A model generated the notes under the pieces. That model was given only the letters and a program-made list of their open reading frames with translations, was not told where the DNA came from and ran no database searches. The position numbers were made by a program, and so were the translations under genes. This document shows positions 1,367-41,449 of a stretch of 60,463 nucleotides of DNA, one piece after another (the stretch's first letter is position 1; every line of letters begins with the position of its first letter). This DNA comes from a virus (Duplodnaviria > Caudoviricetes). The stretch lies in IMG/VR virus record IMGVR_UViG_3300011335_000321, positions 1 to 60,463 of that record, one strand, 5' to 3'.

Positions 1367-3967
1367 TTAAGCTACTTTAACGATAATTCTGGCTCTGCCA
1401 TCTGCTTCAATAGCGATAACTTTACCAACGGATGATTGATATTGTTCAAATGTTGGGTTGCTTACTGCTTGACCTTTGATTGCACCATTGTCATTGACTG
1501 GAATTATGTATTGACCAGCAGTTGCGCCTGTAACATTAACTGGAACTTGTCCTGCAAAAGCAATGCGATCAACAGTCTGACGGGCGACTTCTAAATCATT
1601 TTCTTCAAGATCGCCACCCCATTTGTCATTACCAACATATGAGGGGTCTGTTGACTTCACAACAAAAGACACAGCATTGGCAAACACATTAGTCAACTTG
1701 CCTTGTGAATCAATACCAACCACATCACCTTTGGCAACAGTAAAGTCGCCAGATTTAGTCATGTATTCAGCATAGTCAGCACATGAAGCATTGATAGTTC
1801 CTGCCGCATTGATTGACGGACCAGTTGCGCCAACACTCCACACTTTTAATGGAGCATTTGCGGCATTAGGTGTACCGCCATCTCCATTGTAAAAAATACA
1901 ACCAACATTATTACCAATAACCTCAAGAACAGCATTTCCAACAGCAACAGCTTTCTTTATTTGATGGTTACTTCCACTCGTAGTACCCACTAGCAAATTA
2001 CCAGATGTGTCTATACGGCAACGCTCCGATGGCAAAAAGGCAGTTCCAATAGTCAGCCCAGAATTGGTTGAAAACCACATAGAACCGTCAGGATCATAGT
2101 GAGTACCTGAAGATCCTGTTCTAACAGGCATAAAAGTAAAACTGTTGTCGTAATACGCATTGTTTTGCATATACGCACCAACTGCGTCAGCAACAGCACC
2201 CGCATAAAGGATTTGATTTCCAGAACCACCCTTTAATTCAAGTTGTTTAAAAGACCCAGCAGGACCATGCACAGTTAAGTTAGTAGCAGGTGAACTTGTA
2301 CCAATACCAAAATTACCAGATGTGTCTATACGGGCACGTTCTGCGTTTCCAGTTACAAAACCAACAGGATGGCTACTTAGCGAGCCTATCTTTATATAAT
2401 CATTAGAGCTATCTACGCCACCAATATAAGTCTTTGTGCCATCGTAGGCTTGATAAAAGTTGGTTGTTGCTCCACGACTTAACAACACTCCCAAATCGTT
2501 ACCACCACCGCCATTTCCAATTGTCAAATTGGTGGTAGCGTTTGTTGTTCCAACTAATAGCCGACCACTAGCATCCAGAGTCATTGCCTGAGTAAAGGTA
2601 ATGGCGTTTCCTGCTGTGCCTGATGGGGCTGTTGACCAAGTATGCGCGCCTGACTGTTGTAAATACTGTGTTGCGTTATAGCCTGTGGTTTTGTATTTAG
2701 CGCCACTATTAAAATAAGCATTTGATAAAATTGCTAAATAATTACCGCCACCAGAAATAAATGCTTCTGATTTCAAATCTAAAGAAGTTAAACCACTTCC
2801 CCAAGCACTAGGAGTAACTCCTAATCCAAGGTTGCCAGAGCCATCAAGCCTCATTTTTTCGGTGGAATCGGACGCAGTTACATCAGGCCCTGTATTTGTA
2901 TAAAACGCCAAGGATGTGTTGTTGTACCAATTAGGAGAGCCTGATACTGCAACTACTCTTGCACCTGCGGATGAACTTGCTCCAGTACCACCTTTGTTTG
3001 AAAGCGAAAGTGAAGCCGCAATAGTATTTGCTGATGTAGTGTTGTTGTGAATTACAGCAACACCGTAAACATCCAACTTCTCGGCAGGTGAACTTGTACC
3101 AATACCTAGACCTGTAGAGGTTAGGCGCATTTGTTCTGAGCCTCCAACACCCCAAGATTGGATGCCTGTAATACCAGCAATACGATAATTTTCTATTGCC
3201 GCACCAACATCGTAAAAAACTAAACTTCTTGACCCACGCTCGATATAAATACGCTGTGTTCCAGTATCAGCAAGAAAGTTCAGTTGCGTGTCTGTTGATT
3301 TGCTTCCAGAGCCTAAGTTGGCATTTCCAGTTGTTCCAAAGTTAGTCCCATCAAAAGTAAGCGCAGAGCCACTTGTAACAACTTTAGAGCCGTTTAAATA
3401 AGTAACACCATTGGCAGTGCCTGCTGACAACACTGGGTTGGAAACAAATGAAATAACGCCTGTGCTGTTGGCAATCGATGCGGCAGCTGTTCCATCAAGC
3501 GCCCTAATGTTTGTGACTTCAAGGTTGGTCACATCAAGGGTTGTAAACACCGCCGAGCCGCCCGTATTGCTGACCTTCACAAAGTCAGAACCATTCCATG
3601 CACAGACAGCAGACTCACCAGCAACAATCGTCACGCCCGTAGTCGGGCCAGCGCCTACCAACTTAACGGAGAAGCCGCCTGTGGTGGCGTTGATGACTGT
3701 GTAAATCTTTGACTGCGCTGGGGCTGTAACCGTACGTAATGCCGTACGTGCGCCTGAGAAGAGCAGGATCGCCTGACGAGCCGTGTTCGCAGCGCCTGTG
3801 GTTGTGGTCAGTGTGACATCTGTATCAGTGCTGACGTTGGTCGTACCCGCAACAGAGGTGTCAAGCAGGGATGTAATGCTGTTGTTTACCGTATCACCCC
3901 ATGTGCCGCTCAGTTCGCCCGTGACTGGCAGTGCCAGACCCAAGAGTGATGTGTATGCTGTAGTCAT
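1367..3967 (-). CDS. Tail fibre / receptor-binding protein with a C-terminal chaperone-like domain
   Basis: 866 aa, Gly/Ser/Thr-rich; repeated MRLD.SGN.GIGT-type modules; C-terminal ADYAEY...GQVPV segment typical of auto-cleaved fibre chaperones. Confidence 0.85.
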   Translation of the reverse strand: MTTAYTSLLGLALPVTGELSGTWGDTVNNSITSLLDTSVAGTTNVSTDTDVTLTTTTGAANTARQAILLFSGARTALRTVTAPAQSKIYTVINATTGGFSVKLVGAGPTTGVTIVAGESAVCAWNGSDFVKVSNTGGSAVFTTLDVTNLEVTNIRALDGTAAASIANSTGVISFVSNPVLSAGTANGVTYLNGSKVVTSGSALTFDGTNFGTTGNANLGSGSKSTDTQLNFLADTGTQRIYIERGSRSLVFYDVGAAIENYRIAGITGIQSWGVGGSEQMRLTSTGLGIGTSSPAEKLDVYGVAVIHNNTTSANTIAASLSLSNKGGTGASSSAGARVVAVSGSPNWYNNTSLAFYTNTGPDVTASDSTEKMRLDGSGNLGLGVTPSAWGSGLTSLDLKSEAFISGGGNYLAILSNAYFNSGAKYKTTGYNATQYLQQSGAHTWSTAPSGTAGNAITFTQAMTLDASGRLLVGTTNATTNLTIGNGGGGNDLGVLLSRGATTNFYQAYDGTKTYIGGVDSSNDYIKIGSLSSHPVGFVTGNAERARIDTSGNFGIGTSSPATNLTVHGPAGSFKQLELKGGSGNQILYAGAVADAVGAYMQNNAYYDNSFTFMPVRTGSSGTHYDPDGSMWFSTNSGLTIGTAFLPSERCRIDTSGNLLVGTTSGSNHQIKKAVAVGNAVLEVIGNNVGCIFYNGDGGTPNAANAPLKVWSVGATGPSINAAGTINASCADYAEYMTKSGDFTVAKGDVVGIDSQGKLTNVFANAVSFVVKSTDPSYVGNDKWGGDLEENDLEVARQTVDRIAFAGQVPVNVTGATAGQYIIPVNDNGAIKGQAVSNPTFEQYQSSVGKVIAIEADGRARIIVKVA

Positions 3968-3977
3968 GTTTTAAACC

Positions 3978-4799
3978 TCAAGTTACAATTTCTTCCCATT
4001 CGGGAGTTTGTGCTGTCGTGACTGTAGTCCAAGCAGGCGTCTGCGAATTGCTGATATTTTGCCAGTTTGCGTTCTGGCTGTCATCTATTGGTTTCCAATA
4101 TACAGCAATTATTTCACCCGTAAAACCACTGGCAAGGTTCCCAGTCAAAGAGAGCACCCGTGGGCCAAGAGCCATAGAGCCAACTGCTGCGCTGGCGCTT
4201 ACCCCGGTCAAGGCAATTACCCTGTCAGGCGATACCGATCCAACTTCACCCGTAGCCGTATTTGGCAAGAGCGGAACAATCACTTGCCCCGCAATACCCT
4301 GCGCCTCAACACCGCTCAGCGCAACCAATGCCGACTGAACAACTGTACCGACAGCGCCTGCGGCTTCTACGCCTGAAACGCTAACTGTCTTGGCATGATC
4401 GACTGTGCCAACAGCGCCTGTGCCCAAAACCCCAGACAGTGCAACAGTGCTACTGTTTACAACAGAGCCAACTGCGCCCGTAGCCAGAACACCCGACAGA
4501 GCAACCGTCTTGGCATGGTCAACAGAACCAACCGCGCCCGTAGCCGCTACGCCCGTGAGGGCAATCGTTCTGTCAGCTACAACAGTGCCAACAGCACCCG
4601 TTGCTAAAGTGCCATCCTCGCTTGGACTGTTTGTCTCAGTAACATCCCCAACCGCGCCCAAAGCGCCAACGCCTGAGAGAGCAACAGTGAGTACGGGCGA
4701 CGCAGTGCCGACCGCACCTGAAGCGGCAACGCCTGTTGCATCGAGAGTACCGCCCCAGCCATTACTCCCCCACGCGCCGTCACCCCAGCCGAGAGACAT
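3978..4799 (-). CDS. Repetitive virion structural protein
   Basis: 273 aa; about ten ALSGV.A.GAVG.V repeats; N-terminal WG.G.WG motif. Confidence 0.8.
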   Translation of the reverse strand: MSLGWGDGAWGSNGWGGTLDATGVAASGAVGTASPVLTVALSGVGALGAVGDVTETNSPSEDGTLATGAVGTVVADRTIALTGVAATGAVGSVDHAKTVALSGVLATGAVGSVVNSSTVALSGVLGTGAVGTVDHAKTVSVSGVEAAGAVGTVVQSALVALSGVEAQGIAGQVIVPLLPNTATGEVGSVSPDRVIALTGVSASAAVGSMALGPRVLSLTGNLASGFTGEIIAVYWKPIDDSQNANWQNISNSQTPAWTTVTTAQTPEWEEIVT

Positions 4800-34653: not shown

Positions 34654-36213
34654 ATGGAAATCGTAGAAGACAGAGCACTTATCTTACGTACAAGGAACCC
34701 GCACAAATACTCCATCATCCCTAAGAGCAAGGCAATGCCCCGTGCAGACGGAGGCTACGATGTCGCTGTGTATTGGGGCTTGGATGAAGCGCGGGTCTTG
34801 CGTAACCTAGGTGTCAAAGATGTACCATCGCCTATCACTAGGCGCTATGACTGGCCGGGGCGCTACAAGCCCATGGCGCACCAGATCGAGACTGCGGCAT
34901 TCCTCACGATGTACAGGAGAGCCTTCGTGTTCTCTGAGCCCGGCACGGGTAAGACGCTGTCTGCATTGTGGGCGGCTGACTACTTGATGAAGCTCAAGAA
35001 AGTGCGTAGGGTTCTCATCCTGTGCCCCTTGTCGATCATGCACAGCGCATGGATGGGTGACATCAACAACAGCGTGATACATCGCTCTGCCGTTATCGCG
35101 CACCATGCTCAGGCTAGTCGCCGCATCGAGATGATTCAGCGTGACTATGAGATCGTCATCACCAACTACGAAGGGCTTAACCTGATCGCAGACGAGGTGC
35201 GTAACGATGGCCGCTTTGATCTTGTGATTGTCGATGAAGCCAACGCATACAAAACCATCACCACACGCAGATGGAAGGCGCTGAACTCTATCCTCAACCC
35301 CAACACGTATCTGTGGATGATGACAGGCACACCCGCCTCGCAGTCACCTGTCGATGCGTACGGCTTGGCCAAGTTGGTTAACCCCGAAGGTGTGCCCAAG
35401 TTCTTCACAGCATGGCGCGATCAGGTGATGAACAAACTGACGATGTTCAAGTGGGCGGCAAAGGCGGATGCCAAGGACAAAGTGCACGAAGCACTGCAGC
35501 CTGCGATACGCTTTACCAAAGCAATGTGCCTTGACCTGCCCCCTGTCATTACCATGACCCGTGAGGTTGCTTTGACCCCACAGCAGAACAAGTACTACAA
35601 CTTGCTCAAGGAGCGCATGCTGGTGCAAGCCGCAGGCGAGACCATCACGGCAGTCAACGCCGCCGCTGGCGTATCCAAGCTTCTCCAGATCAGTTGTGGT
35701 GCGGCATATACAGACGACAAGGAAGTGGTTGAGTTTGACTCAGCGCCTAGGCTTGCCGTGCTTGAGGAAATCTTGGAAGAGACCGATCGCAAGGTCATCA
35801 TCTTCGCGCTGTTTCGAAGCACCATCGATACGATCAGCAACTACCTCACCAAGAAAGGCATCAACAACGAGTGCATCCACGGGGACATCTCACCAAGCAA
35901 GCGTGGTCAAACGATAAGCCGCTTTCAGAACGAGTCTGACCCAAGGGTACTGGTGATGCAGCCTGCGGCCTCTGCGCACGGCATTACGCTGACTGCCGCT
36001 GATACTGTGGTGTTCTATGGCCCGCTCATGTCCGTTGAGCAGTACATCCAGTGCTGTGCCCGTGCTGACCGCAAGGGGCAGGACTCCGACAAAGTTACTG
36101 TGATTCACATTCAGAGTAGCGCCATCGAGAAGAAGATGTTTAAAGCGTTGGAAGGGAAAGTTGACGACAACATACTCCTGACCGACATGTTCGAAACTGA
36201 AATTAAATCTTGA
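34654..36213 (+). CDS. SNF2-family helicase
   Basis: EPGTGKT, VDEA, MTGTP, HGITLT, Q...R..R.GQ. Confidence 0.92.
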   Translation: MEIVEDRALILRTRNPHKYSIIPKSKAMPRADGGYDVAVYWGLDEARVLRNLGVKDVPSPITRRYDWPGRYKPMAHQIETAAFLTMYRRAFVFSEPGTGKTLSALWAADYLMKLKKVRRVLILCPLSIMHSAWMGDINNSVIHRSAVIAHHAQASRRIEMIQRDYEIVITNYEGLNLIADEVRNDGRFDLVIVDEANAYKTITTRRWKALNSILNPNTYLWMMTGTPASQSPVDAYGLAKLVNPEGVPKFFTAWRDQVMNKLTMFKWAAKADAKDKVHEALQPAIRFTKAMCLDLPPVITMTREVALTPQQNKYYNLLKERMLVQAAGETITAVNAAAGVSKLLQISCGAAYTDDKEVVEFDSAPRLAVLEEILEETDRKVIIFALFRSTIDTISNYLTKKGINNECIHGDISPSKRGQTISRFQNESDPRVLVMQPAASAHGITLTAADTVVFYGPLMSVEQYIQCCARADRKGQDSDKVTVIHIQSSAIEKKMFKALEGKVDDNILLTDMFETEIKS

Positions 36214-36220
36214 AAGGGGG

Positions 36221-36263
36221 TTGCAAGATCAAGAAATCCATGTAAACTGTCCAACCTTAGACA
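36221..36263 (+). promoter_or_regulatory. Promoter with a TGTC-N8-GACA box over the start site
   Basis: TTGCAA-16 bp-TAAACT; TGTCCAACCTTAGACA at 36248-36263. Confidence 0.58.
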
Positions 36264-36284
36264 ACAAAACAACAGGAGAAGCAA

Positions 36285-36686
36285 GTGTCAGAAGACTCAG
36301 TACCGCTAGACAAACTAGCAAAAATCTACCGCAAACTGCGTAGCAAGATTGCCGACCTGACCCAAGAGTACGACACGCAAGTGGAGATACTCAAGGCGCA
36401 ACAGGAAGAGATCAAGAACGCAATGAAAGACCAGATGAAGGCGATTGGCGTCACATCTGTACGAACCACAGAAGGCACAGTCGTGCTGTCTGTGAAAACA
36501 CGCTACACCACACAAGACTGGGACTCGTTCAAGAAATTCATGATCGAGCACGAGGCCATTGAGTTGTTGGAAAAGCGCATCGCGCAGACCAACATGAAGC
36601 AGTTCTTGGAAGAAAACCCCGGGGTCGTACCGCCCGGACTCAACTCAGCATCTGAGTATGACATCTCTGTACGCAAACCTACTTAA
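36285..36686 (+). CDS. Conserved replication-module coiled-coil protein
   Basis: GTG after AGGAGAAG; DW..F..F......LLEKR...PPGL. Confidence 0.8.
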   Translation: MSEDSVPLDKLAKIYRKLRSKIADLTQEYDTQVEILKAQQEEIKNAMKDQMKAIGVTSVRTTEGTVVLSVKTRYTTQDWDSFKKFMIEHEAIELLEKRIAQTNMKQFLEENPGVVPPGLNSASEYDISVRKPT

Positions 36687-36698
36687 TTGGAAAACAAA

Positions 36699-37682
36699 AT
36701 GAGTAACATTACCATGTTCAGTGCATCTAACGTTCCTGCTTTCGCTAAGAACGCAGAACTCTCAGCAACCACTTTGGCCTTGGCCGGTAACGTGAACGCC
36801 GGTGGCGGCATGAAGCGCGTCTCGATCAAGGGCGGTGTCTTCCGTCTGCTGTCTAGCGGTAAGGAGATTGCCTCGATTGAAGACCGCCACTTGGATGTCA
36901 TCATCGTCAAGGCCGCACCCAAGGTCAGCCGTATTTTCTACGCTGGTGGCTACGATAAAGACGCGGCTGCAGCCGCCCCTGACTGCACCTCTGCTGATGG
37001 CGAAAAGCCCGATGCTGGTGTGAAGAACAAGCAGTCTTCAAGCTGTGCCACATGCCCACAGAACATCGCTGGGTCTGGCAATGGTCAAAGCCGTGCATGC
37101 CGCTACCAACAGCGCTTGGCTGTGGTGTTGGCCAACAACCCCGAAGGCGATGTCTTGCAGGTCACCCTGCCCGCCACATCCATCTTCGGCAAGGAAGACG
37201 GCGAGAAGCGCCCATTACAGGCATACGCCCGCTACATGGCGGCTCAGACTCCTCCTGTTAACTTGGACTCCATCGTGACCCGTATGAAGTTTGACACCAA
37301 GGCTGAGTCTCCCAAGTTGTTCTTCGCCCCTGTGCGTTGGTTGACTGAAGATGAATACGATTCAGCGCAAACGCAAGCCAAGTCTAAGGACGCTGAGAAG
37401 GCCGTGGCTGTCACCCCTGCCTCTGCTGATGGCGTTGCCGCCCCTGCACCGCTGGCCATTGAAGGCAAGCGCCCCACAGCCAAGCCCATGGGCGAGATGA
37501 TGGATGAGGACGAAGCCGAAGCCATGGCCGAAGTTAAGGCCAAGCCCAAAGCCAAGCCCAAGGCTGTCGAGGTGGAAGCCGAGGAAGAGCCAGAAGTGCG
37601 TAAAGCCGCACCCAAGGTTGAGTCTGTGCCAGCTAAGAAAAGCAAGCTGGCCGACATCGTGGCTGACTGGGACGATGAGTAA
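36699..37682 (+). CDS. ssDNA-binding / annealing protein
   Basis: R.SIKGG.F, PDC.S.DG..P, C..CPQN..GS...AC; acidic tail WDDE. Confidence 0.72.
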   Translation: MSNITMFSASNVPAFAKNAELSATTLALAGNVNAGGGMKRVSIKGGVFRLLSSGKEIASIEDRHLDVIIVKAAPKVSRIFYAGGYDKDAAAAAPDCTSADGEKPDAGVKNKQSSSCATCPQNIAGSGNGQSRACRYQQRLAVVLANNPEGDVLQVTLPATSIFGKEDGEKRPLQAYARYMAAQTPPVNLDSIVTRMKFDTKAESPKLFFAPVRWLTEDEYDSAQTQAKSKDAEKAVAVTPASADGVAAPAPLAIEGKRPTAKPMGEMMDEDEAEAMAEVKAKPKAKPKAVEVEAEEEPEVRKAAPKVESVPAKKSKLADIVADWDDE

Positions 37683-37689
37683 TTGAATC

Positions 37690-37766
37690 GGGGGCGGGTA
37701 ACCCGGCAACCAAGGTGGTCATGGAACTGAATCTGTAAGCCAGCATCCCATGCCCCGCCCCCACCT
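37690..37766 (+). ncRNA. Structured RNA element 1 (leader of the 37782 gene)
   Basis: 9-bp closing stem GGGGGCGGG/CCCGCCCCC; inner CAUGG/CCAUG. Confidence 0.55.
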
Positions 37767-37781
37767 TACAAGGAGAAAACA

Positions 37782-38003
37782 ATGGACAGCGAAAATAAAT
37801 TCTGGCTCAGCATCTGCGGCATGGTGACTATTGTCCTCGTATGCATGATCGGCTCTTGCACCTTGGGCATGCAAGACAAACGCGACAAGTGGGAGAAGGC
37901 CGTAACCAACGGCGCTGATCCTATGGTGGCTTCGTGCGCAGTTTTTAACAAAACACGTATGGACGAAGCCGCTTGTTTGTTAATGTCACAGAACAGGAAA
38001 TAA
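37782..38003 (+). CDS. Small membrane protein (73 aa)
   Basis: SD CAAGGAGAA; N-terminal hydrophobic helix. Confidence 0.72.
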   Translation: MDSENKFWLSICGMVTIVLVCMIGSCTLGMQDKRDKWEKAVTNGADPMVASCAVFNKTRMDEAACLLMSQNRK

Positions 38004-38008
38004 AGATC

Positions 38009-38098
38009 GGGGGGAAAGCGGATGCTGCGGGATCGCCTTACAGAGAACCCAAGTGGTGCCCCAAAAGCTCTGACGCAGTGCAGCGAGTACCCCCACCT
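38009..38098 (+). ncRNA. Structured RNA element 2 with a loop-E/sarcin-ricin-like motif
   Basis: GGGGG/CCCCC stem, GAA opposite AGUA, then CUGCG/CGCAG and CAGAG/CUCUG helices. Confidence 0.6.
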
Positions 38099-38104
38099 AA
38101 CACT

Positions 38105-38383
38105 ATGGCCTATTCACAAAAAATCATTGACGATGTAGCGAAGACACCCAAGTCTCTGGGCAACCAGCTTGGGCGTTGGGCAATCCATCTTGACTTTCCG
38201 GTCACGAAGATTGCGTTCGCTCTCGGAGTCTCACGGCAGACCGTTTACAACTGGTTCACGGGCACGGAAGTGTTCGTGGCCTATCGTAACCGCGTCGAAT
38301 TCTTAACCAAAATAATGCAGACCTCTCGCACAGCAGACGAGGCATGGAGAAAAATATGTACGGAATACAACCTCGATCCCTGA
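38105..38383 (+). CDS. Cro/XRE-like HTH regulator
   Basis: VTKIAFALGVSRQTVYNWFTG helix-turn-helix; probable ATG 38105. Confidence 0.82.
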   Translation: MAYSQKIIDDVAKTPKSLGNQLGRWAIHLDFPVTKIAFALGVSRQTVYNWFTGTEVFVAYRNRVEFLTKIMQTSRTADEAWRKICTEYNLDP

Positions 38384-38541
38384 CCACACAGGAACTCGTG
38401 CGCTACAGCGCTGAACTGATTGAGTTGCCCACAGGTATGCCAAAGGAATGGCAGATAGAAGTCTTGCGCCGCTTGACCGTCATGGCACCGCTTGACGAGC
38501 ACCAGTCTAGAGACCCTAAACAGCTCGACCTATTCCTGTAA
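38344..38541 (+). CDS. Small hypothetical protein (start 38344 or 38359)
   Basis: Between the HTH gene and the primase; ends QLDLFL. Confidence 0.65.
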   Translation: MEKNMYGIQPRSLTTQELVRYSAELIELPTGMPKEWQIEVLRRLTVMAPLDEHQSRDPKQLDLFL

Positions 38542-38557
38542 CCTACCAAGGAACTCA

Positions 38558-41449
38558 ATGACCCCGCTTGATTTTTTAGCGGTTGTTCTGCCGCCGCCAG
38601 AATATGGCCGGTACTGCGTAGCAGAACTTACGAAGAAGAAAGAGCATGCCTTTGTGGACACGCTCGATCAGACATCAGCGCCAATTGCCCGTTGGCACGA
38701 AGACAAGTGTGACGTCTACTTTGCCTTGGCTACCTTTGGTGATGAAGACAACCGCACTGCTGCAAACGCAAAGTATGTCAAAGCCCTGTTCATCGACATG
38801 GATGGCTACGCCACAAGAAAAGATGCCGCGCTTGCGCTCAATGCGTTCATGGAGAAGACTGGGCTTGAGGCTGTTGGGACGCCTTACGTTGTGGCATCTG
38901 GTGGCGGCTTGCACTGCTACTGGCCTTTGACTGAGGCTGTGTCCATCGACTCATGGAAACCTGTGGCCGAGAACTTCAAGCGCTTGTGCAAACAAGAAAG
39001 CTTGGCGATCGACATGACTGTGACGGCTGATGCCGCCCGAGTCTTGCGTGTGCCCGGAACTACCAACTTCAAGAAGAAGTACGCAACGCCGCGCCCCGTG
39101 CGCATACTGTCTGACGGCGACACGTTTGACTTCGACTTGCTGGCCGAGCATCTGCGCAACAAGTTGGTGGGTACTGTGTACGAAGCGCAAGCTCCCAAGC
39201 TTGAGTTGCCCGGCTCCCGCCCCTCTGCCGCCTCTGCCTCGGCAACCAGTGTCACTCTTTTCTCCAACAGCGTGACCAAGTTCAAACCAATCTGGTTGGC
39301 TACGCAAAACGCAAAGGGTTGCAATCAGCTTGCACACTACGTTGAACACGCAACCGAAGAAGGCATGGAGCCGATCTGGCGTGGTCTTCTGTCATGGACT
39401 AAGGTCTGTGAGGACGGCAACAAGGCGGCTGTGTGGTTGAGCAAGATGCACCCGTACGAGCCAGAGCGTATGAACCAGAAGCTTCAAAGCATCAAAGGCC
39501 CGTATCCTTGCATCAAGATGGACTGCGAGAACCCCGGCATCTGCCCAAGCTGTCAGCACTGGGGCAAGATCACGAACCCTCTGTTGCTAGGACGCGAGAC
39601 TTCTGTCGAGGTGCAGGAGAAAGAGATCGAAATCACCCTTCCAAGTGACAGCACCGCAACAGTCAAAGAAACGCTCAAGGTCATGCGCCCAACACCGCCC
39701 CGTGGCTATGCCTACGGCACCAATGGCGGTATCTTCATGGAGCGCACAGTCGAGGACGATGATGGGGCTAAGACCAAGAAGCAAGTCATGTTGCTTCCAT
39801 ACGAGTTGTTTGTGGTGGACATCTTGAACAGCAACAGCGATCACACAGTGCACATGATTGCGCTCAAACCTGAAGGCGCTGTGAATGTGACGATGCCGCA
39901 GAAGGCTGTGGTCAGCAAGGACGAGACAGTCAAGGCGTTGGCAAGTCAGAATGTGGTGGCAGCTTTCGGCTCCAACAACGATAAAAATCTTTTTGAATAT
40001 GTGAGGGCATGCGTGGAAGAATCTAGTACAAACAAGGTAGCCGTCAAGGTTCCCGACAGTTACGGCTGGCAAGCCGATAATACATACGTGTATGCAGGGC
40101 GAATCTTTAGCAAAGGTCTGCCGCCAATCAAAGTGCCGATGCCCGGCCTTGAGAACATCACAGTCAACACCGAACCCAAGGGAACGATGGACAACTGGAG
40201 AGCGTTCGTCAATATGCTGATCGCCAAGAAGATGTGGAACCACTTGGCCATTTTGCTTGTCGGTGCTGGAGCGCCATTCATGCGCTTCACGGGCATCTAC
40301 GGCATGACGTACCACTGTGCCAGTACCGAGTCCGGTACGGGTAAGTCTCTGTCTTTGGAAGCCGCCGCATCTGTCTGGGGTCACCCCACCCACTACCGCA
40401 CAGGCAAGAGCACATCGCCTGTGGCCATGCAACAACGCTTGGGTTTACTCAACAGCCACCCACTCATCACGGACGAGATCACCGCGAAGAACCGCAAGGA
40501 CTTCGAGTGGTTGCCTGAGTTCTTGCTTGACATGACTGAAGGCCGAGGCAAGGAGCGTATGGAGTCCGGCTCCAACAAAGAGCGCTTGAACTTGTCCACA
40601 TGGATGACCAACGCCATCATGTCTTCCAACACGCACATCGTGGACTACCTGACTGGTGGACGCAACCATTCATCCGAGGGTGAACTGCGCCGCTTGCTTG
40701 AGTTTGTGCTTGAGGATGAACTGACTTGGGAGCCCCATGAGATTGAGATCATCAAGTCACTGCAGCACAACTATGGCGTAGCAGGTTTTGCCTTGGCTCA
40801 GTACCTTGCCGACAATGTGGCGACCTTCCCAGAGATGGTCAGTGCAGGTGTCACAGCCATGTACAAAGAGTTCAACGCCACCAACGATGAGCGCTTCTGG
40901 ATGGCCGGTATTGGCGCTACTGTTTGCGCTCTGAAAGCTTTTAAAGAGCTTGGCGTGATCGAGATTCCCTACCGCCCCATCATCAATGCGTTTAAGAAGG
41001 TTGTGGAGAACATGCGGGCAAGCATGAAGAGTAGTGTGCGCACTGCTGAAGATGTGCTGAACGCCTACACCCGTGACAGCTACGGCAACTTCGTGGTGAT
41101 CCGTCCAAGCACTGGCGGCTTGATGGCAGAACTGGGTAGCGGCAAAGAGATCGACATCTCCATCACCCGTAACAAGGTGCTTGGCAGGGTCGAGCATGAG
41201 TTGACGCCCAAGTACATCGACTACTACATCGAGGAGCAGTTGCTCAAGTCCTATTGCGCTTCCATGAGCTTTGGCTACACTTCGTTCAAGCGCCAGCTTG
41301 AGGACACCTTTCAGGTTGAGTTCGTCAAGAAGGACATGATGGCCAAGACCAAAGGCCCTCAGATGCGGGTAAGCGTGATGAAGATCAGGCGCAAAGTGGA
41401 GGACTTAGATGAAAGTATCCTCAATCCAGTTTCCGTGGACGAAAGTTGA
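38558..41449 (+). CDS. Primase-helicase (AEP/RepB-like primase plus DUF927-type P-loop helicase)
   Basis: IDMD, SGGGLHCYW, RVLRVPGT.N primase motifs; Cys cluster; SGTGKS Walker A and ITDE Walker B; ATG 38558. Confidence 0.88.
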   Translation: MTPLDFLAVVLPPPEYGRYCVAELTKKKEHAFVDTLDQTSAPIARWHEDKCDVYFALATFGDEDNRTAANAKYVKALFIDMDGYATRKDAALALNAFMEKTGLEAVGTPYVVASGGGLHCYWPLTEAVSIDSWKPVAENFKRLCKQESLAIDMTVTADAARVLRVPGTTNFKKKYATPRPVRILSDGDTFDFDLLAEHLRNKLVGTVYEAQAPKLELPGSRPSAASASATSVTLFSNSVTKFKPIWLATQNAKGCNQLAHYVEHATEEGMEPIWRGLLSWTKVCEDGNKAAVWLSKMHPYEPERMNQKLQSIKGPYPCIKMDCENPGICPSCQHWGKITNPLLLGRETSVEVQEKEIEITLPSDSTATVKETLKVMRPTPPRGYAYGTNGGIFMERTVEDDDGAKTKKQVMLLPYELFVVDILNSNSDHTVHMIALKPEGAVNVTMPQKAVVSKDETVKALASQNVVAAFGSNNDKNLFEYVRACVEESSTNKVAVKVPDSYGWQADNTYVYAGRIFSKGLPPIKVPMPGLENITVNTEPKGTMDNWRAFVNMLIAKKMWNHLAILLVGAGAPFMRFTGIYGMTYHCASTESGTGKSLSLEAAASVWGHPTHYRTGKSTSPVAMQQRLGLLNSHPLITDEITAKNRKDFEWLPEFLLDMTEGRGKERMESGSNKERLNLSTWMTNAIMSSNTHIVDYLTGGRNHSSEGELRRLLEFVLEDELTWEPHEIEIIKSLQHNYGVAGFALAQYLADNVATFPEMVSAGVTAMYKEFNATNDERFWMAGIGATVCALKAFKELGVIEIPYRPIINAFKKVVENMRASMKSSVRTAEDVLNAYTRDSYGNFVVIRPSTGGLMAELGSGKEIDISITRNKVLGRVEHELTPKYIDYYIEEQLLKSYCASMSFGYTSFKRQLEDTFQVEFVKKDMMAKTKGPQMRVSVMKIRRKVEDLDESILNPVSVDES

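What the first reader, a model, noticed from the sequence alone, without database searches (positions are those of the whole stretch)
37687..38100. Two mutually complementary structured RNAs bracket a small membrane-protein gene
Seen: both intergenic elements start ATCGGGGG and end CCCCCACCT, each closing a terminal stem followed by ACC. Element 2 has GGAUGCUG (38020-27) and CUUACAGA (38037-44). These are the exact complements, in antiparallel order, of CAGCAUCC (37741-48) and UCUGUAAG (37732-39) in element 1. The same UGUAAG can instead pair with CUUACA (37765-70), which abuts the SD of the 73-aa membrane ORF. Established: phage P1 C4 and P4 CI are RNase P-processed antisense RNAs acting through short bipartite pairings. 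Inference: an analogous antisense switch or type I toxin-antitoxin-like module controls the membrane protein and perhaps read-through into the HTH-primase genes.
Basis: partly seen in the sequence, partly recalled or inferred. Interest (0 to 1): 0.8.

Follow-up and report, generated by a model that had tools for sequence, protein, structure and literature searches.

The report
Two framed phage RNAs, not partners
The two look-alike RNA hairpins around a small lipoprotein gene are real, but each occurs alone in other phages, and the second belongs to a large, undescribed family of phage RNA hairpins with a fixed base and an ever-changing tip.

Summary
E1 (37690-37765) and E2 (38009-38097) have the stated ends and an exact 8+8 nt antiparallel complementarity. 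No dinucleotide shuffle reached it (0 of 5000).

The antisense-switch reading is not supported. E1's core occurs in 16 other viral contigs without E2. E2's tip occurs in two other genomes without E1. Six of six homologues of the small ORF have no upstream element. Two other two-element loci show no such pairing. Half of the complementarity (GGAUGCUG) is invariant scaffold sequence.

E2 belongs to a widespread scaffold hairpin found in at least 119 viral contigs, with 101 distinct versions. It has a 5-bp G:C stem, a GAA/AGUA loop-E-like motif, a conserved purine loop, a covarying helix, a hypervariable structured tip and a 3' RCC tail (100 of 101). It starts 1-12 nt after a stop codon, most often that of an SSB-type gene. 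Rfam 15 has no match.

My best reading is a tRNA-acceptor-like or 4.5S-like intercistronic RNA that is cut out by RNase P-type processing. The window carries two because a gene-plus-element cassette was inserted.

First readers noted the same scaffold in at least seven other genomes of this scan. None of those notes was followed up.

The parts
36687..37682 (+). 331-aa gene (phrog_27714) whose stop codon precedes E1. It occupies the position that SSB genes hold in other phages carrying the scaffold.
   Evidence: SSB identity was not shown.
37690..37765 (+). E1, a 76-nt framed RNA. The closing stem is 37690-37698 with 37754-37762, the conserved core is about 37703-37752, and the unpaired tail ACC is 37763-37765. 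It is not a member of the loop-E scaffold family.
   Evidence: I2; 10.2 bits, E 1.4
37732..37748 (+). E1 17-mer UCUGUAAG-C-CAGCAUCC, complementary to two blocks of E2.
   Evidence: (I7)
37766..37781 (+). Cassette junction with a strong SD (TTACAAGGAGAAAACA). The same junction follows the first element in L123.
37782..38003 (+). 73-aa small ORF, read as a lipoprotein. It has an N-terminal hydrophobic stretch ending in the lipobox MIGSC.
   Evidence: No Pfam or PHROG family matched.
38009..38097 (+). E2, an 89-nt member of the loop-E scaffold family. P1 is 38009-13 with 38090-94. GAA is 38014-16, opposite AGUA at 38086-89. P2 is 38018-19 with 38083-84. The loop GGAUG is 38020-24, opposite UGCA at 38079-82. 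P3 is 38025-29 with 38074-78. The tip is 38030-38073 and the tail ACC is 38095-97.
   Evidence: 69.7 bits; E2 is a seed member of the model
38105..38383 (+). HTH gene without a Shine-Dalgarno sequence, starting 7 nt after E2's ACC.
38492..41449 (+). DUF927 primase/helicase gene.

Best explanation
E1 and E2 are two independent members of a superfamily of discrete, horizontally exchanged intercistronic RNA hairpins in freshwater phage replication modules. Each has a G:C-rich closing stem that begins a few nucleotides after the upstream stop codon and is followed by an unpaired RCC. This resembles a tRNA acceptor end or, as I recall it, the ends of 4.5S RNA. E2 carries the common scaffold: P1, a GAA/AGUA loop-E-like motif, a conserved purine loop and a covarying P3. 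That scaffold displays a hypervariable but structured tip. E1 has its own frame around a 49-nt core, and in other phages that core sits as the tip of the E2-type scaffold. The inferred mechanism is as follows. The element is transcribed with the flanking genes and cut at the 5' side of G1 by an RNase P-type activity, with the RCC read by the enzyme; RNase E could instead cut the U-rich leader. The cut separates the upstream (SSB-type) message from the downstream replication genes and releases a stable small RNA whose tip is the variable payload. The window has two elements because a cassette of SD, lipoprotein ORF and E2 was inserted behind E1 between two copies of CCCCCACCT. The E1:E2 complementarity is then half generic, since E1's core matches the invariant scaffold sequence. 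The other half is a by-product of shared or rearranged modules, not a conserved switch.
For: Shown:
- The slot between the 331-aa gene and the HTH gene is polymorphic. It was delimited in 66 of 81 loci, giving 42 distinct sequences of 170 nt or less. Of these, 27 end stem+RCC, 8 more end (G)CC, and 7 are simple hairpins with A/T-rich tails.
There are 91 distinct elements of 43-131 nt.
- By an end-independent count, 100 of 101 distinct versions carry RCC after the C run.
- 112 of 113 scaffold elements start within 60 nt after a same-strand stop codon, nearly all at 1-12 nt with a mode of 5.
- P3 covaries. Column pair 23-87 reads UA in 31 and CG in 4 sequences. Pair 25-85 shows six pair types. 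None of 500 shuffles reaches the covariation score. G.U pairs number 27.
- P1 covaries in L240 (GGGCU/GGCCC, with ACC kept). In E1 variants the changes in P1 are C to U, giving G.U pairs.
- Identical elements sit between unrelated genes: there are 33 upstream and 32 downstream gene clusters, and the composite E1-core element lies in four gene contexts.
- Tips show their own compensatory changes, GCGG/CCGC versus GUGG/CCAC versus ACGG/CCGU.
- There is one scaffold per locus in 97 of 100 loci.
- Upstream genes are mostly SSB-type families: 29 loci carry annotated SSB families and 44 carry phrog_27714.
- A 332-nt insertion is bounded by the repeat CCCCCACCT (D3; compare L059).

From the literature (passages read, PMC4919922): bacterial RNase P pairs a GGU of its L15 loop with R73, C74 and C75, and it processes 4.5S RNA, tmRNA, mRNAs and phage regulatory RNAs, citing the C4 paper.
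Against: - No RNA end was observed. The only RNA runs were assembled contigs of relatives.
- N(-1) is C in 66 of 82 sequences, whereas the review describes a preference for U.
- Two scaffold versions lack RCC: L172 has ACU and L099 has an A/U-rich P1 with no RCC.
- Invariance of the 5' frame is partly by construction, because it was the search pattern.
- The strongly conserved internal loops are not explained by RNase P recognition. They point to another, unknown binding partner.
- The E1:E2 second block remains unlikely by chance, at about 2e-4 for this pair by my own arithmetic.
Confidence: 0.45

Rival explanations
1. E1 and E2 are an antisense pair, or E1 alternates between pairing with E2 and with the CUUACA next to the SD. 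This would control the small membrane ORF and read-through into the HTH-primase genes, like P1 C4 or P4 CI, or like a type I toxin-antitoxin module.
For: The exact 8+8 complementarity is beyond chance (0 of 5000 shuffles). The second block occurs in only 1 of 95 scaffold versions, and that one lies 250 nt from E1. UCUGUAAG is about half unpaired in the predicted ensemble. The local duplex is -22 kcal/mol.
Against: E1 and E2 each occur without the other. Six of six ORF homologues lack an upstream element. Two other two-element loci (L069, L123 type) show no pairing beyond 6-mers. GGAUGCUG is buried in E2's conserved helix. The opening costs of 6.2 and 12.5 kcal/mol leave about -3 to -5 kcal/mol net. 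The target in E2 lies 60-85 nt before the HTH start, not at a ribosome-binding site. The ORF carries a lipobox. The CUUACA junction recurs without a matching UGUAAG.
Confidence: 0.12
2. A purely cis-acting mRNA element. A stable hairpin right after the SSB-type gene protects the upstream message from 3' exonucleases, or marks an RNase E or RNase III cut. This would set a high SSB to primase ratio. The tip would need only to fold, and no trans-acting RNA would be made.
For: The element is tightly coupled to the upstream stop codon. In relatives the same slot holds a plain GC tetraloop hairpin with a U/A tail (15 of 66 slots). In some loci a terminator or promoter-like sequence follows the element, so it belongs to the upstream 3' UTR (3' flanks listed). 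The leader is U-rich.
Against: This does not explain the near-invariant RCC, the loop-E motif or the conserved purine loop. It also does not explain tip modules that are kept identical across unrelated phages and moved between frames.
Confidence: 0.25
3. A DNA-level element. A hairpin extruded from single-stranded DNA would serve as a cassette boundary or recombination site, like an integron attC, or as a priming or loading signal in the replication module.
For: The element has conserved imperfect inverted ends with a hypervariable centre. It lies directly after ORFs. Elements bracket inserted genes in the window, in L069 and in L123. The insertion is bounded by a 9-nt repeat. It neighbours SSB, primase, polymerase and exonuclease genes.
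Against: No attC core sites are present, by reading. No integrase or recombinase was found among the 17 window ORFs scanned, although the scan was partial. There is one copy per locus in 97 of 100 loci. The tips show RNA-like features: G.U pairs, T-loop-like hairpins and compensatory changes. The RCC tail has no role in this model.
Confidence: 0.1
4. A protein- or polymerase-binding regulatory RNA. The loop-E motif and purine loop would bind a host factor or the phage SSB itself. Examples would be autoregulation of the SSB gene or a put-like antitermination signal.
For: The internal loops are invariant in 94 of 95 versions. The element is associated with SSB genes of several unrelated families. 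In L108 and L154 an intrinsic-terminator-like hairpin follows directly.
Against: No partner was identified. In 37 of 113 loci none of the five upstream-gene families searched for lies within 2.5 kb. The upstream and downstream genes are very diverse.
Confidence: 0.08

Closest known systems
P1/P7 C4 and P4 CI antisense RNAs (RNase P-processed phage immunity RNAs)
   Same: Small phage RNAs embedded in an operon, framed by an acceptor-like stem with a CC-containing 3' tail, with variable loops. PMC4919922 lists phage regulatory RNAs as RNase P substrates (passages read).
   Different: The Rfam scan gave no match to any family at gathering score, and at E up to 10 it listed only two unrelated, weak matches. 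No conserved target overlaps a ribosome-binding site. The supposed partners occur apart. The phage has no visible immunity region. Details of C4 and CI are recalled; the primary paper was not held.
tRNA acceptor minihelix and the 4.5S RNA precursor as RNase P substrates
   Same: G at +1, a G:C-rich terminal helix continued by stacked non-canonical pairs, and an unpaired R-C-C straight after the helix with a free fourth base. These are the three positions that pair with L15.
   Different: ARAGORN finds no tRNA or tmRNA. N(-1) is mostly C. The helix is much longer than 12 bp before any T-loop-like hairpin. The likeness to the termini of 4.5S RNA is recalled, not tested.
Intercistronic processing or stabiliser hairpins (T7 RNase III sites, 3'-UTR-derived small RNAs cut by RNase E)
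   Same: The position straight after a stop codon, irregular hairpins with internal loops, and a possible role in differential expression within an operon.
   Different: Here the sequence is conserved across unrelated phages, the RCC tail is invariant, and the tip is modular and hypervariable. The comparison rests on recalled knowledge.
Integron attC sites
   Same: Conserved imperfect inverted ends, a variable central structure, a position directly after cassette ORFs, and elements that bracket inserted genes.
   Different: No RYYYAAC/GTTRRRY core sites (consensus recalled), no integrase found, usually one copy per genome, and RNA-like features in the tips.

Membership tests
Loop-E scaffold hairpin family (model R1 built here) | Full-length match to the covariance model: P1, GAA/AGUA, P2, purine loop, P3 and the RCC tail | tested here: met
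   E2 scores 69.7 bits, E 2.6e-15, but E2 is one of the 35 seed sequences. Non-seed members score 20-79 bits.
Loop-E scaffold hairpin family (model R1 built here) | The same model applied to E1 | tested here: not met
   E1 scores 10.2 bits, E 1.4, matching only the leader, P1 and ACC. E1-type loci score nothing at E up to 0.1.
P1 C4 / P4 CI-type antisense RNA | Similarity to the curated RNA family model | tested here: not met
   Rfam 15 gives no match at gathering score in the window. At E up to 10, the stretch 37600-38200 gives only two unrelated weak matches. That a C4 model is in Rfam is recalled.
P1 C4 / P4 CI-type antisense RNA | Loops complementary to a target at a ribosome-binding site of the same operon, conserved among relatives | tested here: not met
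   The complement lies inside E2, 60-85 nt before the HTH start. The partners never co-occur elsewhere in what was fetched.
P1 C4 / P4 CI-type antisense RNA | 5' end made by RNase P | not testable with these tools
   Only assembled RNA contigs were on hand.
RNase P substrate of the tRNA-acceptor / 4.5S kind | G+1, a terminal helix, and an unpaired RCC directly 3' of the helix | tested here: met
   100 of 101 scaffold versions. 27 of 42 distinct slot sequences, plus 8 that end (G)CC. Both E1 and E2.
Type I toxin-antitoxin module | A small hydrophobic toxin without an export signal, paired with an antisense RNA, kept together in relatives | tested here: not met
   The ORF has a lipobox (MIGSC, or LIASC in L006; one homologue lacks the Cys). 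Six of six homologues have no upstream element, and their downstream elements are of four tip types.
tRNA / tmRNA | Cloverleaf or tRNA-like domain found by ARAGORN | tested here: not met
   0 genes in the window and in 22 loci.
Intrinsic terminator | A GC hairpin followed by a U tract | tested here: not met
   No terminator-like site on the + strand in 36000-39000. The tails read ACCUUACA and ACCUAACA.
Integron attC | R''/R' core sites and an IntI integrase | tested here: not met
   The core sites are absent by reading. No integrase was found among the 17 window ORFs scanned. The remaining ORFs were not scanned.
REP / MITE-type repeat | Many copies per genome | tested here: not met
   Two framed elements in the 60-kb genome. 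One scaffold per locus in 97 of 100 loci.

The most novel reading that the evidence does not exclude
The scaffold is a mobile RNA display cassette of freshwater phages. It would be excised in a tRNA-like way and carry more than 90 interchangeable structured payloads. E1's core would be an anti-scaffold RNA, because its CAGCAUCC pairs with the invariant GGAUGCUG of scaffold RNAs: in cis in the composite elements and in trans in this phage. Phages would then regulate or interfere with each other's scaffold RNAs, and the extra 8-nt match to E2 would be a selected specificity contact.
Probability: 0.1. Interest if true: 0.85.

Novelty: new variant of a known kind. Interest (0 to 1): 0.6.

Why it matters
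The claimed two-RNA switch does not hold up. The follow-up does expose a large RNA family that Rfam 15 does not match. The family has a rigid, sequence-conserved hairpin base with a loop-E-like motif and a tRNA-like RCC tail. It sits directly after SSB-type and other genes in hundreds of phage contigs, and its tip is swapped wholesale between near-identical phages.

If the element is an RNase P-type substrate, it would show that phages widely use tRNA-like punctuation to split replication operons and to release small RNAs. It would also give a natural scaffold with dozens of payloads whose functions could be tested.

The work also shows how shared modules can produce a strikingly non-random complementarity that is not a conserved interaction.

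Tried and rejected
- **Rfam.** At gathering score there were no matches in the window or in 20 loci. At E up to 10 or 5, the region and 11 scaffold loci gave nothing at the elements.
- **ARAGORN.** No tRNA or tmRNA.
- **Phage collection.** blastn with 36000-40000 found no match.
- **RNAduplex on whole elements.** Uninformative. Long hairpins pair with each other, and E1-E2 ranked 132nd of 465 pairs with 189 of 1000 shuffles as good. I replaced it with the block statistic.
- **Generic scan for stem+RCC in the window.** About 20 hits per strand, which is background.
- **Hypothetical ancestral hairpin.** I searched viral contigs for one holding both arms in cis. Result: 0.
- **E1 core in bacterial species genomes.** 0 matches.
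- **Scaffold frame in bacterial species genomes.** 16 hits, of which only 4 are real. These lie on small contigs of beta-proteobacterial MAGs. The other 12 are chance matches without the 3' frame. This is only a weak host hint.
- **Sequencing runs.** All runs served were assembled contigs. The RNA runs held relatives at 88-95% likeness, with the slot replaced or skipped. Nothing can be said about transcript ends, strand or level.
- **SSB nature of the 331-aa protein.** No PDB match by sequence or by profile. The AlphaFold model was unusable, with mean pLDDT 30.9. hhalign against an Enc34-type SSB gave nothing.
- **Literature.** A word search for phage hairpins after stop codons gave nothing relevant (listing only). 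The C4 primary paper is not held.
- **Ideas considered and dropped.** A conserved mini-ORF from the scaffold's AUG was dropped because the reading frames differ between versions. A split SD bridged by the hairpin applies only to a subset of loci.
Full report
**What is in the window.** The window is a whole viral record of 60,463 bases, rated 96% complete. On the + strand a replication module runs in this order:
- DNA polymerase;
- exonuclease;
- SNF2 helicase (34654-36213);
- a 133-aa gene;
- a 331-aa gene (36687-37682, phrog_27714);
- E1;
- a 73-aa ORF (37782-38003);
- E2;
- an HTH gene (38105-38383);
- a DUF927 primase/helicase gene (38492-41449).

The frame pattern occurs twice in the window and in none of 100 shuffles. 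The 8+8 complementarity was reached by 0 of 5000 dinucleotide shuffles, and it is the highest value among 465 allele pairs. Single-sequence folding energies are not better than shuffles. Rfam and ARAGORN find nothing.

**The slot is polymorphic.** The 331-aa protein has at least 594 relatives in viral contigs, and 80 loci were fetched. I delimited the stretch between its stop codon and the HTH start in 66 of 81 loci. It holds very different things.
- 15 slots have a plain GC tetraloop hairpin with a U/A tail.
- Many have framed elements that begin (A/T)TC-GGGGG and end CCCCC-ACC, with unrelated interiors of 50-130 nt. Some of these contain T-arm-like hairpins.
- Others have two further structured classes closed by different stems and followed by GCC.

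L059 has E1 alone, directly before the HTH gene. L030 and L031 have E1's core inside E2's outer frame. L006 has the small ORF directly behind the 331-aa gene, followed by yet another element. Of 42 distinct slot sequences of 170 nt or less, 27 end stem+RCC, 8 end (G)CC, and 7 are the simple hairpins.

**E2 belongs to a large scaffold family.** In 115 new loci there are 91 distinct elements of 43-131 nt. All share the 5' strand GGGGGGAAAGCGGAUGCYG, which is the search pattern and so invariant by construction. The 3' strand CRG-(AC or U)-GCAGCGAGUACCCCC-ACC was not constrained by the search, yet it is nearly invariant. It matched my pattern for the frame (which allows two variable positions) in 94 of 95 versions, and 79 of these carry the commonest form.

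The inferred architecture, from base to tip, is:
- P1, formed by five G:C pairs;
- GAA opposite AGUA, the bulged-G or loop-E signature (recalled, and also noted by other first readers);
- two G:C pairs;
- a purine-rich internal loop (GGAUG opposite ACGCA or UGCA);
- P3;
- a hypervariable tip.

P3 covaries. Column pair 23-87 reads UA in 31 sequences and CG in 4, with none unpaired. Pair 25-85 shows six pair types. None of 500 shuffles reaches the covariation score, and slid registers pair far worse (with 27 G.U pairs). P1 itself covaries in a metagenome relative of E2, as GGGCU/GGCCC with ACC kept. It becomes A/U-rich in an AT-rich phage (L099).

In a count that does not use the tail to find the end, 100 of 101 distinct versions have RCC after the C run: 97 ACC, 3 GCC and 1 ACU. 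The base after RCC is free: U in 59, C in 18 and A in 5 of 82.

Tips are not filler. One tip type shows compensatory changes, GCGG/CCGC versus GUGG/CCAC versus ACGG/CCGU. Modules also recur in different frames: E1's core does, and by my reading of the listings so do the double T-arm and a GUGCAA...GCUUGCGGACGA hairpin.

No Rfam family matches 11 scaffold loci even at E up to 5.

**Position and neighbours.** In 112 of 113 loci the scaffold starts within 60 nt after the stop codon of a same-strand ORF, nearly always at 1-12 nt with a mode of 5. In 111 of 113 a same-strand ORF starts within 120 nt downstream, at widely varying distance. In some loci a terminator-like hairpin or a promoter-like sequence lies between the element and the next gene (3' flanks). 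The element therefore belongs to the upstream gene's 3' end.

The upstream ORFs fall into 33 clusters and the downstream ORFs into 32. The upstream side is dominated by ssDNA-binding protein families that are unrelated to each other:
- DUF669/phrog_2300;
- phrog_7364;
- Enc34_ssDNA-bd (gp2.5-like).

Together these are found within 2.5 kb upstream in 29 of 113 loci. The 331-aa family (phrog_27714) is found in 44 loci, and 37 loci have none of the five upstream-gene families I searched for. I could not show that the 331-aa protein is an SSB.

Downstream genes include the HTH gene (30), a phrog_1123 protein (18), a Cas4-like exonuclease (12) and AEP primases.

The model R1, built from 35 versions, finds one scaffold per locus in 97 of 100 loci. 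Three related loci have a second, weaker element about 600 nt upstream. In bacterial species genomes only 4 of 16 pattern hits are real elements. These lie on small contigs of beta-proteobacterial MAGs.

**E1.** R1 matches E1 only through its leader, P1 and ACC (10.2 bits, E 1.4), so E1 is not a scaffold member. Its 19-nt core motif occurs in 16 viral contigs. Five have E1's own frame, and 11 have the core as the tip of the E2-type scaffold. Those 11 lie in four different gene contexts with almost identical element sequence and unrelated flanks. The elements therefore move as discrete units whose borders are G1 and ACC.

In my listing, the E1-frame variants differ from the window's E1 at three sites. 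Two are C to U changes in the 3' strand of P1 that give G.U pairs, which is allowed only on the sense strand. The third is a C to U change in CAGCAUCC.

In one composite element a double change (CCGUGAA/UUCACGG) keeps the local P3 helix. It does not keep a GGAUGCUG:CAGUAUCC pairing.

**The claimed partnership.**
- Five E1-bearing records (26-57 kb, 42-85% complete) contain the E2-arm pattern only as E1's own antisense strand.
- E2's tip occurs in L099, a 95% complete 35.7-kb phage without an E1 arm.
- It also occurs in L240, behind a gene whose product ends like a bacterial-type SSB (my reading of the sequence) and next to ORFs that I read, unscanned, as an excisionase and an integrase. There is no E1 in that 8.7-kb locus.
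- A search for a single hairpin carrying both arms found nothing.
- Two other architectures with two elements around inserted genes exist. L069 holds a lipoprotein ORF plus a small membrane ORF, and L123, L183 and L195 hold two soluble ORFs. Their elements share no more than isolated 6-mers.
- Homologues of the small ORF occur in six other loci. All six lack an upstream element, and each is followed by one element: a scaffold with three tip types, an L051-like frame, or the E1 type.
- The ORF has a hydrophobic N-terminus ending in a lipobox. It reads as a small lipoprotein, a typical moron, not as a type I toxin.
- The junction ACC-TTACAAGGAGAAA before the ORF recurs behind L123's first element, which has no UGUAAG.
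- GGAUGCUG is scaffold sequence, so 88 of 95 scaffold versions are complementary to E1's CAGCAUCC over 8 nt or more. Only the window's E2 has the second block.
- E2's tip also shares a forward motif with E1's core, AACC(C)AAG(G)UGGU (by reading). This suggests that the two are rearranged relatives.
- Thermodynamically the local duplex (-22 kcal/mol) is largely offset by opening costs (6.2 and 12.5). The cofold gain is -4.7 kcal/mol.

**How the window's arrangement arose.** CCCCCACCT occurs at 37758-37766 and at 38090-38098, with a start-to-start spacing of 332 nt (D3). L059 shows E1 followed directly by AACACTATGG. The window therefore equals an L059-type genome plus a 332-nt insertion of SD, lipoprotein ORF and E2, bounded by the repeated 3' end of the elements.

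**Mechanism.** I commit to the following reading. These are tRNA-acceptor-like or 4.5S-like intercistronic RNAs, processed at G1 by an RNase P-type activity. The pattern of a terminal helix, then invariant R-C-C, then a free fourth base matches the three substrate positions that pair with the L15 loop of bacterial RNase P. The same enzyme is known to process 4.5S RNA, tmRNA, mRNAs and phage regulatory RNAs (passages of PMC4919922).

What is shown is the anatomy, the covariation, the strand, the position and the mobility. What is inferred is the cleavage, the stability of the product and any trans function of the tips. The conserved loop-E motif and purine loop point to an additional, unknown binding partner. 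The rivals are a purely cis-acting stabiliser or processing hairpin, a DNA-level hairpin site, and a protein-binding regulator. They are scored in their own sections.

**Earlier notes of this scan.** First readers described the same loop-E element between an SSB-like gene and an HTH gene in at least seven other genomes, and none was followed up. One recalled a named orphan motif. I found no Rfam match and no held paper with that name.

Noticed in passing
window 37712-37738: E1's conserved core contains an SD-like AAGGUGG followed by a five-codon mini-ORF, AUG GAA CUG AAU CUG UAA. The UCUGUAAG block includes its stop codon. The core hardly varies, so selection on coding cannot be judged.
   Followed up: no
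window 38098-38107: The HTH gene has no Shine-Dalgarno sequence. Its AUG lies 7 nt after E2's ACC, in an A/C-rich leader. The same holds for all slot alleles in relatives.
   Followed up: partly
L002:4994-5130 and L071-L079 (same slot): Two further structured RNA classes of about 120 nt fill the same slot in relatives. They are closed by GCUAGG/CCUAGC or by GGGAGGUAGC/GCUACCUCCC, are followed by GCC, and have a variable centre. Neither has an Rfam match.
   Followed up: partly
L176:9-92: A c-di-GMP-I riboswitch aptamer (66.6 bits; gathering score 35) on a viral contig that also carries a scaffold element.
   Followed up: no
L166:1894-1960 (- strand): A near-threshold match to the int-alpA RNA family (34.3 bits against a gathering score of 35.8).
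   Followed up: no
L240:about 2650-4320 of the reversed locus: An E2-type element in a 124-kb metagenome contig. It lies directly behind a gene whose product ends like a bacterial-type SSB, and ORFs that I read, unscanned, as an excisionase and a tyrosine integrase lie nearby. This looks like a prophage or integrated element.
   Followed up: partly
L007, L013, L043, L152, L171, L115, L122, L169 (tips of the elements): Several tips carry one or two hairpins with tRNA T-arm-like loops (GGUUCGAUUCC-like), some directly abutting the 3' strand of the supporting helix. ARAGORN calls no tRNA in the six of these loci that were scanned, L007, L013, L043 and three loci with tips like those of L122 and L169.
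   Followed up: partly
L069:5313-5848: A cassette between two elements. It encodes a 135-aa lipoprotein-like ORF (lipobox LAAC) and a small membrane ORF.
   Followed up: no
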